From positions 1 through 5,110 of the IMG/VR virus record IMGVR_UViG_2698536657_000013: 5,110 bases of DNA. One strand, given 5' to 3'. Positions 1,018 through 5,110 of the stretch are shown here, piece after piece. A program made the translations under genes and the position numbers. Position 1 is the first letter of the stretch, and the number at the start of each line of letters is the position of its first letter. The notes beneath the pieces are model-generated. The model saw only the letters and a list, made by a program, of their open reading frames with translations, was not told the DNA's origin and made no database searches. Source of the DNA: a virus. Its lineage: Duplodnaviria; Heunggongvirae; Uroviricota; Caudoviricetes.

Positions 1018-2172
1018 ATGAAAAAAACGACAGTGGCACTTTCTGCTGTAGCAGTGGCAGTGATGTTTGCTGCGGGGGTGCAGGCAGCAGAAGTTTATAA
1101 TAAAGATGGTAATAAACTGGATCTTTACGGGCGTGTAACCGCTCTGCATTACTTCTCGGATGATAAAGGTAATGACGGAGACCAGACTTATGCTCGTCTC
1201 GGCTTTAAAGGCGAAACGCAGATTAATGATCAACTGACCGGATTTGGTCAGTGGGAATACCAGTTCTCTGGTAACAAAACGGAATCTGAAGGTTCCGCGG
1301 GAAATAAAACCCGTCTGGCATTTGCAGGTCTGAGATTTGCAGATGTTGGTACCATTGATTACGGACGTAACTATGGTATTGCTTATGATGTCGGATCATA
1401 TACTGACGTACTGCCTGAGTTTGGTGGTGATGGCTGGACGCAGACCGATAACTTTATGACGGCCCGAACTTCCGGTGTCCTGACTTACCGTAATACAGAC
1501 TTCTTCGGGCTGGTTGATGGTCTGAATTTTGCGGCGCAGTATCAGGGCAAAAATGAGCGTGATGACCTTCAGAAGGCTAATGGCGACGGGTATGGTTTCT
1601 CGGCCAGCTATGAGTTTGATGGTTTTGGTTTTGTCGCTGCGTATACCAAGTCAGATCGTACCGATAAGCAGGTTCAGGGGTTGAACGGTACTGCAGATGT
1701 TCTTGATCCTGAATCAGGTAAAAAGGTTGGAGAAAAAACAGTTGACTCAGGTAGTGTGGCAAAAGGTAAACATGCTGAATTCTGGGGAACTGGTCTTAAA
1801 TATGATGCCAATAACCTGTATCTGGCAGCAGTGTATTCTGAAACCCAGAATATGACGACCTTTGGTGATCAAGGTGTTGCGGATAAAGCTCAGAATATCG
1901 AAGCCGTTGTTCAGTATCAGTTTGATTTTGGTCTGCGCCCGTCCCTTGCCTACCTTCAGTCCCGCGGACAGGATGTTATGGTTGGTGGTGTGAACCATGG
2001 CGATCAGGATCTGGTTAAATATATTGATGTCGGTGCGACTTATTACTTTAACAAGAATATGTCCACCTATGTTGATTATAAAATTAACCTGATTGATGAA
2101 AGTGAATTTACCCGGAAAGCCGGTGTTGCGACAGATAATATCGTTGCTGTGGGTATGACTTATCAGTTCTGA
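1018..2172 (+). CDS. Outer-membrane general porin, OmpC/OmpF/PhoE family (prophage-borne NmpC/Lc-like lysogenic-conversion porin)
   Basis: 384-aa ORF. Signal peptide [23 protein letters not shown] followed by mature N-terminus [16 protein letters not shown]. Porin hallmark blocks: [109 protein letters not shown]. Ends in ...YQF, the beta-barrel C-terminal aromatic. Codon and base composition are more AT-rich than the flanking tail genes. Confidence 0.95.
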
Positions 2173-2381: not shown

Positions 2382-3080
2382 ATGCAGGATATTCACGAAG
2401 AAAGCCTGAACGAGTCGGTTAAGTCAGAGCAGTCACCGCGGGTGGTGCTCTGGGAAATCGACCTGACGGTGCAGGGCGGTGAGCGGTATTTTTTCTGCAA
2501 TGAGCTGAATGAAAAAGGGGAGCCGGTGACCTGGCAGGGGCGTGAATATCAGGCGTACCCGATTGAGGGCAGCGGCTTTGAGATGAACGGAAAGGGCAGC
2601 AGTGCCCGCCCGTCGCTGACGGTGTCCAATCTTTTCGGGCTGGTCACCGGGATGGCGGAGGATTTGCAGAGCCTGGTGGGTGCCACGGTGGTCCGCCGCC
2701 GGGTGTATGCGCGTTTTCTGGATGCGGTGAATTTTGTGGCAGGGAATCCTGAGGCAGACCCTGAGCAGGAGCTGACGGACCGGTGGGTGGTGGAGCAGAT
2801 GTCATCGCTGACGGCCATGACGGCCTCGTTTGTGCTGGCGACACCGACGGAGACGGACGGTGCGTTGTTTCCCGGTCGCATCATGCTGGCGAACACCTGT
2901 ATGTGGGATTACCGGGGCGATGAGTGCGGGTATAACGGTCCGGCAGTGGCGGATGAGTTCGACAACCCCACCACGGATATCCGGAAGGACAGATGCAGTA
3001 AATGCATGCGCGGGTGTGAGATGCGCGGCATGGTGGCTAATTTTGGCGGTTTCCTTTCCATCAATAAACTTTCGCAGTAA
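2382..3080 (+). CDS. Tail tip protein L (lambda gpL-like)
   Basis: ATG at 2382 (MQDIHEESLNE...). The ORF-track start at 2340 is a TTG inside the terminator hairpin and is unlikely. gpL-like blocks: VVLWEIDLT, GGERYFFCNELNEKGEPVTWQG, GKGSSARPSLTVSNLFG, FPGRIMLANTC, FGGFLSINKLSQ. C-terminal Cys cluster present. Stop TAA at 3078-3080. Confidence 0.9.
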   Translation: MQDIHEESLNESVKSEQSPRVVLWEIDLTVQGGERYFFCNELNEKGEPVTWQGREYQAYPIEGSGFEMNGKGSSARPSLTVSNLFGLVTGMAEDLQSLVGATVVRRRVYARFLDAVNFVAGNPEADPEQELTDRWVVEQMSSLTAMTASFVLATPTETDGALFPGRIMLANTCMWDYRGDECGYNGPAVADEFDNPTTDIRKDRCSKCMRGCEMRGMVANFGGFLSINKLSQ

Positions 3081-3090
3081 ATCCCGTTTT

Positions 3091-3834
3091 ATGACACAGA
3101 CTGAATCAGCGATTCTGGCGCATGCCCGGCGGTGTGCGCCAGCGGAGTCGTGCGGCTTCGTGATAAGCACCCCGGAGGGCGAACGGTACCAGCCCTGCGT
3201 GAATATCTCCGCAGAGCCGGAGGCGTATTTTCGTATTGCACCGGAAGACTGGCTGCAGGCACAGATGCAGGGGGAGATTATGGCGCTGGTCCACAGTCAT
3301 CCCGGTGGTCTGCCCTGGCTGAGCGAGGCTGACCGGCGGCTGCAGATAAAGAGTGCCCTGCCCTGGTGGCTGGTCTGCCGGGGCGACATTCACCGGTTCC
3401 GCTGTGTGCCGCACCTGACCGGACGGCGCTTTGAACACGGTGTGACGGACTGTTACAGCCTGTTCCGGGATGCATACCATCTGGCGGGGATAACGCTGCC
3501 GGATTTTGTGCGTGAGGATGACTGGTGGCGCAACGGCCAGAACCTGTACCTGGACAACCTGGCGGACAACGGCTTTTACCGGGTGTCTCCGTCCTGTGCA
3601 CAGGCGGGCGATATCCTGCTGTGCTGCTTTGGTTCATCGGTGCCGAATCATGCCGCCATTTACTGTGGCAACGGTGAACTGCTTCACCATATACCTGAAC
3701 AACTGAGTAAACGGGAGAGGTATTCTGAAAAATGGCAACGACGAACGCATTCTGTCTGGCGTCACCGCCACTGGTCCGTATCTGCCTTCACGGGGATTTA
3801 CAACGATTTGGTCGCCGCATCAGCCTGTATGTGA
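3091..3834 (+). CDS. Tail tip assembly protein K (lambda gpK-like); JAB/MPN (JAMM) metalloprotease-like domain plus NlpC/P60 domain
   Basis: ATG at 3091 (MTQTESAILAHARR...), 11 nt after the L stop. The ORF-track start at 2830 overlaps L in another frame and is rejected. JAMM motif HSHPGGLPWLSEAD (H-x-H-x7-S-x2-D) starts at nt 3292. NlpC/P60-like Cys (GVTDCYSLF) and His (VPNHAAIY). Overlaps the I gene by 103 nt as in lambda. Start is uncertain: lambda's own K annotation is shorter, so a later start is possible. Confidence 0.85.
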   Translation: MTQTESAILAHARRCAPAESCGFVISTPEGERYQPCVNISAEPEAYFRIAPEDWLQAQMQGEIMALVHSHPGGLPWLSEADRRLQIKSALPWWLVCRGDIHRFRCVPHLTGRRFEHGVTDCYSLFRDAYHLAGITLPDFVREDDWWRNGQNLYLDNLADNGFYRVSPSCAQAGDILLCCFGSSVPNHAAIYCGNGELLHHIPEQLSKRERYSEKWQRRTHSVWRHRHWSVSAFTGIYNDLVAASACM

Positions 3835-4412
3835 ACACGGCAGCGGAGGCCATCCGTGCCCTGTCGCTGCAGGTGCCGGGATTCCGCGGTCAGATGAACG
3901 AAGGCTGGTATCAGATACGTATTGCCGGTGAGGATACCGCGCCGGAGGCGGTGTATGCCCGTCTTCATGAGCCACTGAGCGGGAGGGCCGTGATTCATAT
4001 TGTACCGCGGCTGGCCGGAGCCGGGGGAAATGGTGTTTTTCAGGTGGTGCTGGGGGTTGCAGCGATTGTCGGGTCATTTTTCACTGGTGGTGCAACACTG
4101 GCGGCATGGGGCGCAGCCCTGAGTGCCGGAGGGCTGACTGCCACCACGATGCTGTTCTCACTGGGTGCCAGCATGATACTGGGTGGTGTGGCTCAGATGC
4201 TGGCCCCGAAGGCAAAGACGCCGGAGTATAAAAGTACGGATAACGGTAAACAGAACACGTATTTTTCGTCACTGGACAACATGATTGCCCAGGGTAACCC
4301 GATGCCGGTGCCTTACGGTGAAATGCTGGTTGGTTCACGACGGATATCCCAGGATATCAGCACCCGTGATGAGGGCGGAGACGGGAAAGTGGTGGTTATC
4401 GGGCGGGGATAA
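3732..4412 (+). CDS. Tail assembly protein I (lambda gpI-like; N-terminal ubiquitin-like beta-grasp domain)
   Basis: 226-aa ORF MATTNAFCLASPPLVRICLHGDLQRFGRRI... with gpI-like blocks (YQIRIAG, VIHIVPR.AGA, Gly/Ala-rich hydrophobic segment, GKQNTYFSSLDNM.AQGN, YGEM.VGSR). Starts inside the 3' end of K. Stop TAA at 4410-4412. Confidence 0.9.
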   Translation: MATTNAFCLASPPLVRICLHGDLQRFGRRISLYVNTAAEAIRALSLQVPGFRGQMNEGWYQIRIAGEDTAPEAVYARLHEPLSGRAVIHIVPRLAGAGGNGVFQVVLGVAAIVGSFFTGGATLAAWGAALSAGGLTATTMLFSLGASMILGGVAQMLAPKAKTPEYKSTDNGKQNTYFSSLDNMIAQGNPMPVPYGEMLVGSRRISQDISTRDEGGDGKVVVIGRG

Positions 4413-4451
4413 AAATAAAAAAAATCCCGCAGAGTTAGTGGAGCTGCGGGA
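4411..4451 (-). terminator. Rho-independent terminator, minus strand (cassette A)
   Basis: Read on the minus strand: stem TCCCGCAG / CTGCGGGA (4425-4451, 8 bp, 11-nt loop) followed by a U-run (plus-strand A-tract 4411-4424). The U-run abuts the stop codon of I, so it is convergent with the tail operon. Confidence 0.6.
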
Positions 4452-4509
4452 AATAACGATGAAGATTAATGTTATGGAGTTATTTTTTTGGGCAGAAAAA
4501 CATTAACGC
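4411..4509 (-). ncRNA. Putative small RNA, cassette A (about 100 nt, minus strand)
   Basis: Bounded by minus-strand -10 TATAAT (plus coordinates 4516-4521) and the terminator at 4411-4451. No convincing ORF with an RBS. Body contains A-rich runs and the pyrimidine motif AACUCC. Ends with a U-tail. Start is estimated, not mapped. Confidence 0.3.
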
Positions 4510-4542
4510 AGCGAAATTATAAGCGCTACATGGATTTTGCGA

Positions 4543-4564
4543 AAATGTGAAGAAATTCAGAAAT
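4543..4564. promoter_or_regulatory. CRP-like box (AAATGTGA-agaaat-TCAGAaat) upstream of the minus-strand -10 of cassette A
   Basis: Matches the CRP consensus AAATGTGA-N6-TCACATTT with one half-site mismatch (TCAGA). The 5' T of TGTGA is 25 bp from the minus-strand TATAAT, placing the site centre roughly 41-45 bp upstream of the predicted start (class II-like). Confidence 0.35.
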
Positions 4565-4640
4565 TTTTTGCTGCAGAGGTGCAGGGAGCTTGCCGGGTAT
4601 CTGTGGCAGAAGACAGAAAACATCATGCCGGGGTTAAGGG

Positions 4641-4676
4641 ATAAAAAAATCCCGCAGAGTTAGCGGAGCTGCGGGA
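4641..4676 (-). terminator. Rho-independent terminator, minus strand (cassette B)
   Basis: Same 8-bp stem (4650-4657 / 4669-4676) followed on the minus strand by 7 U (plus-strand A-run 4643-4649). Confidence 0.6.
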
Positions 4677-4740
4677 CAGAACCGATGAAGATTAACGTTC
4701 AAGGAGTTTTGTTTTTATTGACCCGAAAAAACTGTAACGC
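4641..4740 (-). ncRNA. Putative small RNA, cassette B (about 100 nt, minus strand)
   Basis: Bounded by minus-strand -10 TATCAT (4747-4752) and the terminator at 4641-4676. Body shares AACUCCUUGAACGUUAAUCUUCAUCG with cassette A. Confidence 0.3.
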
Positions 4741-4773
4741 CCCGGAATGATATCTGCCATGGGGACGCACAGG

Positions 4774-4795
4774 AAATGTGAAGAAATTCAGACTT
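4774..4795. promoter_or_regulatory. CRP-like box, cassette B
   Basis: AAATGTGA-agaaat-TCAGActt. Same 25-bp offset to minus-strand TATCAT (4747-4752). Confidence 0.35.
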
Positions 4796-4877
4796 TTTCT
4801 GTCGCAGGTTTACAGAACGGATTACCGCCGGGGTACCAGTGGCGTAAATGAGCCGGATGTTGTGGTGCGGCTGAAGC

Positions 4878-4917
4878 AAAAAAATCTCCCGTAATATCGC
4901 CGGATACTGACGGGAGA
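4878..4917 (-). terminator. Rho-independent terminator, minus strand (cassette C)
   Basis: Stem TCTCCCGT / ACGGGAGA (4885-4892 / 4910-4917) followed on the minus strand by 7 U (plus-strand A-run 4878-4884). Sequence differs from A and B but pairing is fully preserved. Confidence 0.55.
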
Positions 4918-4980
4918 CGAATAGTCACCTTAAGGAGGTCTGATAATTATTGCTTTTATTGAGCAAAAAAACTGTAACGC
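4878..4980 (-). ncRNA. Putative small RNA, cassette C (about 100 nt, minus strand)
   Basis: Bounded by minus-strand -10 TATAAT (4987-4992) and the terminator at 4878-4917. Body contains ACCUCCUUA, identical to the 16S rRNA anti-Shine-Dalgarno sequence. Confidence 0.3.
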
Positions 4981-5013
4981 TGCATCATTATAGCGGCTAC
5001 AGGCAATTGCCGG

Positions 5014-5035
5014 AAATGTGAAGAATTTCAGAAAT
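5014..5035. promoter_or_regulatory. CRP-like box, cassette C
   Basis: AAATGTGA-agaatt-TCAGAaat. Same 25-bp offset to minus-strand TATAAT (4987-4992). Confidence 0.35.
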
Positions 5036-5051
5036 TTTATTCCGTCATGAC

Positions 5052-5083
5052 ACAGGCACCCTCCGGGGTGCCTGTCGTTTTCT
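5052..5083 (+). terminator. Rho-independent terminator, plus strand
   Basis: ACAGGCACCC (5052-5061), loop TCCG, GGGTGCCTGT (5066-5075), then cgTTTTcT (5076-5083). Perfect 10-bp stem. The T-run is modest (4 T). Confidence 0.5.
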
Positions 5084-5110
5084 GGCATAAACAGATTCAG
5101 ACATCAGACA

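What the first reader, a model, noticed from the sequence alone, without database searches (positions are those of the whole stretch)
4411..4980. Each cassette is built like a minus-strand small-RNA gene
In all three cassettes a -10 hexamer reads on the minus strand (TATAAT, TATCAT, TATAAT at plus coordinates 4516-4521, 4747-4752, 4987-4992). About 100 nt downstream on that strand is a GC hairpin followed by 7-8 U. The predicted RNAs start with a conserved GCGUUAnnGUUUUU, contain A-rich stretches and end with a U-tail, features typical of Hfq-dependent sRNAs. Lambdoid prophages of pathogenic E. coli are known to carry many Hfq-binding sRNAs in moron positions, but I cannot confirm identity with any named sRNA from memory.
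Basis: inference. Interest (0 to 1): 0.7.

Follow-up and report, generated by a model that had tools for sequence, protein, structure and literature searches.

The report
Three tandem PasB-family prophage sRNA genes
The three repeats between phage tail genes I and J are real small-RNA genes of an already validated Hfq-dependent family (PasB in EPEC, EcOnc22-24 in EHEC), here present as an unusual three-copy array whose third copy is an unnamed divergent relative.

Summary
The window is a lambdoid prophage tail region (H, M, an OmpC-like porin moron, L, K, I; J starts just past the end). The I-J spacer holds three minus-strand cassettes. Each has a conserved upstream module, a -10 hexamer, a GCGUUAnnGUUUUU leader, an (ARN)3-5 run, a hairpin and a U7-8 tail.

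Cassettes 1 and 2 are homologues of PasB. PasB is an 83-nt, Northern-validated, Hfq-dependent sRNA of EPEC E2348/69 that lies in the same I-J slot on the antisense strand. They are also homologues of EcOnc22/23/24 of EHEC Sakai (Hfq CRAC peak, about 85 nt, destabilised without Hfq). The published EcOnc22/23/24 Northern probe is the exact complement of that RNA body. Cassette 3 is a distant paralogue with a different body and terminator ("type B"), present in about 2% of complete E. coli genomes and not named anywhere I could find.

Rfam has no family for any of them. What may be new is modest:
- Arrays of 1-4 cassettes occur.
- Type B is an unnamed paralogue.
- An invariant CRP-like palindrome lies upstream of every promoter, at a non-canonical -44.5.

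A conserved antisense small ORF is ruled out. Overall this is a known kind with new members, of low to moderate interest.

The parts
4417..4509 (-). Cassette 1 sRNA gene (PasB/EcOnc22 type). It has leader GCGUUAAUGUUUUU, an (ARN)3 run at 4487-4479, the conserved block UUAAUCUUCAU, and a terminator with stem CCCGCAG/CUGCGGG, an 11-nt loop and U8. Its 3' end lies 5-8 nt from the stop codon of gene I.
   Evidence: The profile hit has E = 7e-22. Identity is 75% to PasB and 83% to the Sakai EcOnc22 RNA.
4516..4543 (-). Cassette 1 sigma-70 promoter: -35 TTCGCA (4543-4538), a 16-nt spacer, and -10 TATAAT (4521-4516). The predicted +1 is G4509.
   Evidence: The consensus scan scores it 10 of 12. The -10 lies at a fixed offset of 48 nt from the module start in 63 of 69 unique related units.
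4543..4564 (.). Conserved upstream module of cassette 1, a CRP-like palindrome: AAATGTGA-AGAAAT-TCAGAAAT. It is centred at -44.5 relative to the predicted +1.
   Evidence: Three copies are found against 0.01 expected. It is the most conserved block of the cassette in a sample chosen through protein I, independently of the cassettes.
4643..4740 (-). Cassette 2 sRNA gene (PasB type). It has leader GCGUUACAGUUUUUU, an (ARN)4 run at 4719-4708, the block UUAAUCUUCAU, the same terminator stem, and U7.
   Evidence: The profile hit has E = 9e-24. Identity is 78% to PasB and 83% to the Sakai EcOnc22 RNA. The terminator is also called by the scan.
4747..4752 (-). Cassette 2 -10 hexamer TATCAT. The -35 region (TTCCTG) is poor, so this promoter is probably weaker or depends on an activator.
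   Evidence: Read from the sequence. TATCAT is the -10 in 10 of 69 unique related units.
4774..4795 (.). Conserved CRP-like upstream module of cassette 2.
4878..4980 (-). Cassette 3 sRNA gene, the divergent 'type B' paralogue. It shares the leader GCGUUACAGUUUUUUU and has an (ARN)5 run at 4960-4946. Its body contains ACCUCCUUAAGGUGACUAUUCGU, where ACCUCCUUA is, from my memory, the 3' end of 16S rRNA. It has a different 15-bp bulged terminator (CUCCCGU...ACGGGAG) and U7.
   Evidence: The full-length hit to the PasB-type profile is weak, E = 5.5e-7. Identity to PasB and EcOnc22 is 61-68%. The fold gives z = -3.0. The body occurs in 110 of 5426 complete E. coli genomes. Three subtypes are seen in IMG/VR.
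4987..4992 (-). Cassette 3 -10 hexamer TATAAT (-35 region TTCCGG).
   Evidence: Read from the sequence.
5014..5035 (.). Conserved CRP-like upstream module of cassette 3.
3831..4412 (+). Tail assembly gene I (context). The array begins immediately after its stop codon. Gene J starts at about 5126, just beyond the window.
   Evidence: Pfam Lambda_tail_I and the RefSeq annotation of the 99.6%-identical locus.
5052..5085 (+). Plus-strand terminator-like hairpin (ACAGGCACCC-TCCG-GGGTGCCTGT followed by CGTTTTCTGG) between the last cassette and J. It is context, not part of the sRNA genes.
   Evidence: The scan finds it. The same hairpin is present in the E2348/69 and Sakai spacers.

Best explanation
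The I-J spacer of this lambdoid prophage carries three tandem, independently promoted sRNA genes of the PasB/EcOnc22-24 family, all transcribed antisense to the late tail operon.

**How each gene is built and transcribed**
- Each gene is read from its own sigma-70 promoter. A strictly positioned, invariant CRP-like module precedes each promoter.
- Each gene ends at a Rho-independent terminator. That terminator works only in the antisense direction, because on the sense strand the hairpin is followed by AAATAAC, ACAGAAC or ACGAATA rather than a T run. Late transcription from I into J should therefore not be terminated.

**What the RNAs look like**
- They are about 90-100 nt long and largely unstructured apart from the terminator.
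- They carry an (ARN)n run and a U7-8 tail, the two features that contact the distal and proximal faces of Hfq.

**How they probably act**
- They are stabilised by Hfq and act in trans by base pairing. The likely pairing regions are the conserved single-stranded block UUAAUCUUCRU and a neighbouring, variable CUCCUU-like (anti-Shine-Dalgarno-like) stretch.
- Cassettes 1 and 2 are partly redundant PasB variants. Cassette 3 is a diverged paralogue with a different body and probably different targets.

**What is shown and what is inferred**
- Shown here: homology, position, strand, promoter and terminator anatomy, and conservation.
- Shown by others for homologues: expression, size and Hfq dependence (both families), and many RNA partners (PasB, by RIL-seq).
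- Inferred: expression of these three particular copies, the seed, control by CRP, and any function of cassette 3.
For: **Identity**
- A profile of 57 non-window PasB-type RNAs hits cassette 2 (E = 9e-24), cassette 1 (7e-22) and cassette 3 (5.5e-7), all on the minus strand.
- An alignment with the E2348/69 unit shows a shared promoter, leader, body and terminator.

**Position**
- PasB lies 6 nt after the I stop codon and antisense to I and J in E2348/69.
- The same holds for EcOnc22/23/24 in Sakai prophages Sp15, Sp14 and Sp11. The paper used NC_002695.1. Calibrating the coordinate shift on AgvB gives +137 to +146.
- The first 23 nt of the published Northern probe are the exact complement of the Sakai RNA.

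**Experimental evidence in homologues**
- Northern bands of 83 and about 85 nt; loss in the hfq deletion mutant (log2 fold change -6.8); 37 RIL-seq interactions; PasB is usually the second RNA in chimeras.

**Ubiquity**
- In a sample chosen only through protein I, 79 of 79 I-J spacers carry at least one PasB-type body on the antisense strand and none on the sense strand.

**Anatomy**
- The terminator is the only conserved structure. Its stem is invariant, with one compensatory GC-to-AU change.
- (ARN) runs of 3 or more occur in 52 of 59 variants, against 6% of shuffles.
- The module is the most conserved block and has a fixed spacing to the -10.

**Hint of CRP control**
- The module matches the CRP consensus at 14 of 16 half-site positions.
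[quoted passage not shown] Spf is known, from my memory, to be repressed by CRP.
Against: - There is no expression data for this strain or for these exact copies.
- Cassette 2 has a TATCAT -10 and a poor -35, and its whole-RNA fold is not better than shuffles (z = -0.8).
- Cassette 3 has no validated close relative. One type-B subtype (B2) lacks a recognisable -10, so some type-B copies may be dead.
- Homologues are reported as 83-85 nt, but the TATAAT-based start predicts 91-98 nt for those same loci. The true 5' end, or a processing step, is therefore unresolved.
- The CRP-like site is centred at -44.5. This is off the canonical class II position (-41.5) by about a third of a helical turn, so activation by CRP is uncertain.
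- The published analysis found no common target motif for PasB. The motif table has no PasB entry.
Confidence: 0.88

Rival explanations
1. One or two of the cassettes, most likely cassette 2 or cassette 3, are decaying duplicates left by unequal recombination between related prophage I-J spacers. They would no longer produce a stable or functional RNA, and only one copy would be active.
For: - Arrays contain clearly degraded members. The third unit of the four-cassette array in L056 has GTGCAT in place of the -10.
- Type-B subtype B2 has no good -10.
- Cassette 2 has a weak promoter, and its fold has z = -0.8.
- Full three-cassette arrays like this one occur in only 18 of 5426 genomes.
Against: - All three window copies keep an intact module, a -10 with A at position 2 and T at position 6, the leader, the ARN run, the hairpin and the U7-8 tail.
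- The cassette 2 variant with TATCAT is common among single-copy loci, where it is the only copy.
Confidence: 0.25
2. The RNAs act mainly in cis. They would be antisense RNAs to the I-J spacer of the late tail-operon mRNA of this or a related phage, for example directing processing or lowering J expression, rather than acting as trans regulators of host genes.
For: - They are perfectly complementary to the late transcript by construction.
- The location is fixed: 79 of 79 I-J spacers in this clade carry one. A pure moron cargo would be expected to be more mobile.
Against: - RIL-seq found 37 trans partners for PasB in a lysogen where late genes are silent.
- The RNAs cover neither the J ribosome-binding site nor the I coding region.
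- The cis and trans roles are not mutually exclusive.
Confidence: 0.15
3. The conserved block encodes a small protein on the plus strand (MKINV...), making the locus a type I toxin-antitoxin-like pair or a small tail-operon gene. The minus-strand features would then be secondary.
For: - In PasB and in cassettes 1 and 2 the plus strand reads ATG AAG ATT AAY GTN.
- The few differences among these three fall on third codon positions.
Against: - Across 59 unique variants the start codon is ATG in only 33; it is ACG in 19 and ACA in 6.
- The downstream frame and length are not conserved.
- There is no convincing Shine-Dalgarno sequence.
- The peptide is not hydrophobic like Ibs, Ldr or Hok peptides.
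Confidence: 0.02
4. The hairpins are structural elements of the late operon, such as terminators, insulators or mRNA-stability elements acting on the plus strand, and the minus-strand promoter-like hexamers are coincidental.
For: A separate plus-strand terminator-like hairpin does exist just upstream of J at 5052-5085.
Against: - On the plus strand each cassette hairpin is preceded by the A run, not followed by a T run.
- The promoter module, its spacing and the -10 are conserved on the minus strand.
- Minus-strand transcripts were detected experimentally in homologues.
Confidence: 0.02

Closest known systems
PasB sRNA of EPEC O127:H6 E2348/69 (Pearl Mizrahi et al. 2021, PMC8550237; surveyed by Zhu, Shabalina and Storz 2026, bioRxiv 10.64898/2026.05.13.724894)
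   Same: - Same slot: the I-J spacer of a lambdoid tail operon, on the antisense strand.
- Same promoter module, TATAAT, GCGUUA leader, UUAAUCUUCAU block and CCCGCAG/CUGCGGG terminator with a U tail.
- Cassettes 1 and 2 are 75-78% identical to it.
   Different: - E2348/69 has one copy; this window has three in tandem.
- Terminator loops and the stretch before the conserved block differ.
- Cassette 3 has another body and terminator, is only 68% identical to PasB, and its body gave BLAST matches in only 110 genomes.
- The preprint does not mention tandem PasB arrays, promoters, CRP or the EcOnc names.
EcOnc22/EcOnc23/EcOnc24 of EHEC O157:H7 Sakai prophages Sp15, Sp14 and Sp11 (Tree et al. 2014, PMC4104026, Table S2)
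   Same: - Same slot and strand.
- The RNA is 83% identical to cassettes 1 and 2.
- Hfq crosslinking, a Northern band of about 85 nt, and destabilisation in the hfq deletion mutant.
   Different: - There is a single cassette per prophage in Sakai.
- These RNAs were never characterised beyond the table.
- I found no statement linking them to PasB in either PasB paper.
AgvB and AsxR prophage anti-sRNAs (Rfam RF02702, RF02703)
   Same: They are short, Hfq-binding sRNAs carried by lambdoid prophages of pathogenic E. coli in moron positions, convergent with phage genes, with ARN motifs.
   Different: - They lie in a different place, downstream of PR'/stx rather than in the tail operon.
- They are 51-60 nt long and unrelated in sequence.
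- Their covariance models do not hit this window, although AgvB was found by the same method in the Sakai control locus.
Tandemly duplicated sRNA genes such as OmrA/OmrB and PrrF1/PrrF2 (cited in the Zhu et al. discussion)
   Same: They are head-to-tail sRNA paralogues that share ends and promoter logic but have diverged internal regions.
   Different: - Those are core-genome pairs with known regulators (from my memory, OmpR and Fur).
- Here the array is phage-borne, varies from 1 to 4 units between phages, and mixes two body types.

Membership tests
PasB / EcOnc22-24 sRNA family | Sequence homology of the RNA to the validated members | tested here: met
   - nhmmer with a profile built without any window sequence gives cassette 2 E = 9e-24, cassette 1 E = 7e-22 and cassette 3 E = 5.5e-7 (full length but low accuracy).
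- Identity to PasB is 78%, 75% and 68%; identity to the Sakai EcOnc22 RNA is 83%, 83% and 61%.
- The criterion is clearly met for cassettes 1 and 2 and only distantly for cassette 3.
PasB / EcOnc22-24 sRNA family | Location in the spacer between tail genes I and J, on the strand antisense to the tail operon | tested here: met
   - Window annotation comes from the 99.6%-identical RefSeq locus and from Pfam.
- The E2348/69 and Sakai loci have the same arrangement.
- 79 of 79 protein-I-anchored spacers carry the RNA body on the antisense strand.
PasB / EcOnc22-24 sRNA family | Rho-independent terminator with the invariant CCCGCAG/CUGCGGG stem and a U run of 6 or more | tested here: met
   - Cassettes 1 and 2 have the invariant stem plus U8 and U7.
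- Cassette 3 does NOT. It has a different, longer stem (CUCCCGU...ACGGGAG) plus U7. It is therefore a paralogue and not a PasB variant in the strict sense.
PasB / EcOnc22-24 sRNA family | Own promoter: the conserved upstream module and a -10 hexamer at fixed spacing, followed by the GCGUUA leader | tested here: met
   All three cassettes meet this.
PasB / EcOnc22-24 sRNA family | A stable transcript of about 83-85 nt whose abundance depends on Hfq | not testable with these tools
   This is known only for the E2348/69 and Sakai copies. Sequence proxies are present in all three cassettes: an (ARN)3-5 run and a U7-8 tail.
Any Rfam 15 family (including AgvB, AsxR, STnc100, IsrG, IS009, Esr41) | A covariance-model match | tested here: not met
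   - No match with E up to 1 in the window.
- No match in the E2348/69 and Sakai I-J loci at E up to 0.1, nor over any cassette in the other array loci at E up to 1.
- In the same run, AgvB and STnc100 were recovered in a control locus.
Type I toxin-antitoxin pair (Ibs/Sib-like: an sRNA fully antisense to a small ORF, in tandem repeats) | A conserved small ORF with a conserved start codon on the strand opposite the sRNA | tested here: not met
   The start codon is ATG in 33, ACG in 19 and ACA in 6 of 59 unique variants. Frames and lengths are not conserved.
CRP-activated (class II) promoter | A CRP consensus site centred at -41.5 | tested here: inconclusive
   - The site matches 14 of 16 consensus half-site positions, is invariant and has fixed spacing.
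- Its centre is at -44.5 from the predicted +1, which is not canonical.
- Dependence on CRP or cAMP cannot be tested here.
- The only hint is that PasB and Spf vary in opposite directions between growth conditions.

The most novel reading that the evidence does not exclude
The I-J spacer of this phage clade may work as a modular, expandable sRNA array.

- One invariant, probably catabolite-responsive (CRP-like) promoter module would drive interchangeable sRNA bodies.
- Those bodies diversify in the pre-seed stretch and the terminator loop, and multiply by unequal recombination into arrays of 1-4 units.
- One of them is an unnamed second sRNA (type B, cassette 3). Its single-stranded ACCUCCUUA copies the anti-Shine-Dalgarno end of 16S rRNA and would target ribosome-binding sites.
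- The same antisense slot can instead take a protein moron (sodC) that replaces the promoter module.
Probability: 0.3. Interest if true: 0.5.

Novelty: new member of a known kind. Interest (0 to 1): 0.3.

Why it matters
- **Naming.** The finding gives a name and published experimental support to what looked like anonymous repeats. These are copies of an Hfq-dependent prophage sRNA already validated in EPEC and EHEC.
- **Linking two literatures.** It connects two names, PasB and EcOnc22-24, that I did not find linked anywhere.
- **Annotation gap.** The family has no Rfam model and is not annotated in RefSeq, so it is missed in hundreds of STEC and EPEC genomes.
- **Open leads.**
  - Tandem arrays of 1-4 cassettes exist.
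  - A divergent type-B paralogue has an anti-Shine-Dalgarno-like sequence.
  - An invariant CRP-like site precedes every promoter.

  If confirmed, these would tie expression of a phage-borne regulator to the host's carbon status. They would also show one way that prophages diversify sRNA repertoires.

Tried and rejected
- **Rfam scans.** I scanned the window and related loci at permissive thresholds and found nothing over any cassette. The method did recover AgvB and STnc100 in a control locus.
- **AgvB/AsxR identity.** Rejected. Those RNAs lie downstream of PR'/stx and are 51-60 nt long, and their covariance models do not hit the window.
- **Plus-strand small ORF or type I toxin.** Rejected. 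The start codon and frame are not conserved. The sRNA strand has no ORF of 8 or more codons.
- **Leader-to-seed helix.** A long-range helix between the GCGUUA leader and the UUAAUC block appears in the cassette 1 fold. RNAalifold does not support it across 34 variants; only the terminator is conserved.
- **Pairing with window genes.** I tested the three RNA bodies against the translation-initiation regions of the window's own genes, including the OmpC-like porin, using duplexfold with shuffles. The porin gave p = 0.14-0.86. The one p = 0.007 among 15 tests was not pursued.
- **Literature search for sequence strings.** Searching full text for body and probe sequence strings found nothing relevant.
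- **Scan of species-representative genomes.** The 19-nt module pattern (17 specified bases) gave 82 hits, close to my estimate of about 69 chance hits. Only three carry a PasB-type RNA: Escherichia albertii and two tiny contigs in non-enteric assemblies that are probably contamination.
- **EcOnc22 coordinates.** Taken at face value in the current Sakai record, they fall upstream of the promoter. This was resolved as a genome-version shift and confirmed by the probe sequence.
Full report
**Context.** The window is the tail-tip region of a lambdoid prophage.
- The genes are the end of the tape-measure gene (21-485), M (478-819), an OmpC-like porin moron (1018-2172), L (2382-3080), K (3091-3834) and I (3831-4412). 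J starts about 16 nt beyond the window.
- This layout comes from the RefSeq annotation of a 99.6%-identical STEC chromosome and from Pfam.
- The finding concerns the roughly 700-nt spacer between I and J.

**Checking the observation.**
- Three direct repeats of about 230-240 nt fill the spacer.
- On the minus strand each repeat has a -10 hexamer: TATAAT at 4521-4516, TATCAT at 4752-4747 and TATAAT at 4992-4987.
- A GCGUUAnnGUUUUU leader starts 7 nt downstream of each -10.
- Each RNA has an A-rich run that reads as (ARN)3, (ARN)4 and (ARN)5.
- Each ends in a GC hairpin followed by U8, U7 and U7.
- The simple scanner calls only the cassette 1 promoter (TTCGCA-16-TATAAT, 10/12) and the cassette 2 terminator, because its rules exclude 11-nt loops and bulged stems. 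The minimum-free-energy folds show all three terminators.
- On the plus strand each hairpin is preceded by the A run and followed by no T run. The terminators are therefore one-directional and should let late transcription pass from I to J.

**Identity.** Rfam 15 has nothing here, but the literature does.
- Table S6 of Pearl Mizrahi et al. 2021 (PMC8550237) places PasB of EPEC E2348/69 at NC_011601 1466343-1466261 on the minus strand. It is 83 nt long and its Northern probe is AATCCCGCAGTGATCGCGGAGCT.
- That position lies 6 nt after the stop codon of tail assembly gene I, upstream of J and antisense to both.
- An alignment of the E2348/69 unit with the three cassettes shows a shared upstream module, -10, leader, body and terminator.
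- A profile HMM built from 57 unique relatives, excluding all window sequences, hits the window exactly three times, all on the minus strand. The E-values are 9e-24 for cassette 2, 7e-22 for cassette 1 and 5.5e-7 for cassette 3.
- PasB was confirmed by Northern blot, falls by log2 6.8 in an hfq deletion mutant, and has 37 RIL-seq partners.

**A second, older name.** Table S2 of Tree et al. 2014 (PMC4104026) lists EcOnc22, EcOnc23 and EcOnc24 in Sakai prophages Sp15, Sp14 and Sp11.
- They have Hfq CRAC peaks, a Northern band of about 85 nt, and are "Destabilised" in the hfq deletion mutant.
- All three peaks fall in I-J spacers on the strand antisense to the tail genes.
- The paper used NC_002695.1. 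Calibrating the shift to the current record on AgvB gives +137 to +146, which places the peaks on the RNA body.
- Decisively, the first 23 nt of the EcOnc22/23/24 Northern probe (GGGAGAGAACGATGAAGATTAAC) are the exact reverse complement of the Sakai spacer RNA.
- Cassettes 1 and 2 are 83% identical to that RNA.
- I found no text linking EcOnc22-24 to PasB. The PasB row in Table S6 carries no EHEC-homologue note, and the 2026 preprint does not mention EcOnc.

**How general the family is.**
- Scans of IMG/VR gave 59 unique PasB-type RNAs.
- In a sample drawn only through protein I, and therefore independent of the cassettes, 79 of 79 I-J spacers carry at least one PasB-type body on the antisense strand and none on the sense strand.
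- About 13-15% of complete E. coli genomes have matches.
- Outside E. coli, only Escherichia albertii was credibly found.

**Anatomy across variants.**
- The only conserved structure is the terminator. Its 7-bp stem is invariant, with one compensatory GC-to-AU change, and its loop is hypervariable.
- The body is single-stranded. It has a nearly invariant UUAAUCUUCRU block, the region Zhu et al. propose as the seed. A variable CUCCUU-like stretch precedes it.
- (ARN) runs of 3 or more occur in 52 of 59 variants, against 6% of shuffles.
- These features fit an Hfq-dependent base-pairing sRNA.

**Cassette 3.**
- It shares the module, the -10 and the leader with the others.
- Its body differs (ACCUCCUUAAGGUGACUAUUCGU), and so does its terminator, a longer bulged stem.
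- This "type B" body occurs in 110 of 5426 complete genomes, mostly STEC. It has three subtypes, one of which lacks a good -10.
- In my sample it appears only in arrays together with a PasB-type unit next to I.
- I found no name or data for it.
- I treat it as a diverged paralogue whose expression is plausible but unproven.

**Arrays.**
- Most spacers have one cassette, but arrays of two, three (this window and a few relatives) and four (L056) occur. Some arrays include units with mutated -10 hexamers.
- Only 18 of 5426 genomes carry this full three-cassette arrangement.
- The 2026 preprint discusses tandem duplication only to exclude it for PasA and PasD, and says nothing about PasB arrays.

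**Promoter module.**
- Upstream of every -35 lies AAAA(A/T)TTCTGAAnnTCTTCACATTT. On the plus strand this reads AAATGTGA-N6-TCAGA.
- It occurs three times in the window against 0.01 expected.
- It is the most conserved block of the cassette in the protein-I-anchored sample.
- Its distance to the -10 is fixed in 63 of 69 units, although the sequence in between varies.
- It matches the CRP consensus at 14 of 16 half-site positions, but it is centred at -44.5 rather than -41.5.
[quoted passage not shown] From my memory, Spf is CRP-repressed. This is consistent with CRP activation but does not prove it.

**Rejected alternatives.**
- A plus-strand small ORF (MKINV...) is not conserved.
- Plus-strand terminator or insulator roles do not fit the sequence or the published transcripts.
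- A cis-antisense role on the late mRNA remains possible alongside trans action.

**Unresolved.**
- The start predicted from TATAAT gives 91-98 nt for the validated loci, but 83-85 nt are reported. The true 5' end, or a processing step, needs mapping.

**Verdict.** The family is already known under two names, and this locus adds new members and a tandem arrangement. Interest is low to moderate.

Noticed in passing
L321 (IMG/VR) and 12 similar loci; I-J spacer of about 850 nt: In about 13 of 79 protein-I-anchored spacers a Cu/Zn superoxide dismutase gene (sodC, Pfam Sod_Cu, E = 4e-32) with its own terminator lies on the sRNA strand. It sits exactly where the PasB promoter module would be, and the PasB-type body and terminator remain directly downstream (junction ...CCCTCTCTGAGTTAATG...). 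The I-J spacer therefore acts as an antisense moron slot. In these phages the sRNA body may be made only by read-through or be silent.
   Followed up: partly
window 1018-2172 (+), with flanks 820-1017 and 2173-2370: An OmpC-like porin gene (Pfam Porin_1, E = 2e-144; annotated ompC in RefSeq) is inserted as a moron between tail genes M and L. It has an AT-rich upstream region and a strong terminator at 2346-2363 plus T6. E2348/69 lacks this insert: there M is directly followed by L.
   Followed up: partly
window 5052-5085 (+): A 10-bp GC-rich hairpin followed by CGTTTTCTGG, terminator-like on the sense strand, lies between the last cassette and the J start. It is conserved in the E2348/69 and Sakai spacers, with changes that keep the stem. 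Its role is unknown; it might insulate J from non-antiterminated transcription or act as a 5' structure of the J message.
   Followed up: no
window terminator loops 4433-4443 and 4660-4670; related loci: The 7-bp terminator stem is invariant, but its 7-17 nt loop is hypervariable between variants and often C-rich (CUCCGCUAACU, CUCCGCGAUCA, CCUCCAUACA, UUCCUGUCCGCGAUCA). The loops are unusually large for terminators and could be a second interaction site. This is untested.
   Followed up: no
L056 (IMG/VR_UViG_2728369607_000007), positions about 620-1600 on the minus strand: A four-cassette array in one I-J spacer, in the order (from J towards I) PasB type, type B3, a PasB type with a mutated -10 (GTGCAT), and PasB type. 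It is the largest array seen.
   Followed up: partly
L248 (Parendozoicomonas haliclonae, 460-nt contig) and L264 (Streptomyces flavalbus, 3.4-kb contig): Full-length PasB-type RNAs (E about 1e-20) lie on very short contigs of non-enteric genome assemblies. These are most likely E. coli phage contamination of those assemblies.
   Followed up: no
Sakai NC_002695.2 compared with Table S2 of Tree et al. 2014: The EcOnc coordinates in the 2014 table refer to NC_002695.1. Around 1.94-2.9 Mb they are offset by about +137 to +146 nt in the current record. Read at face value they point to the wrong side of the promoter.
   Followed up: yes
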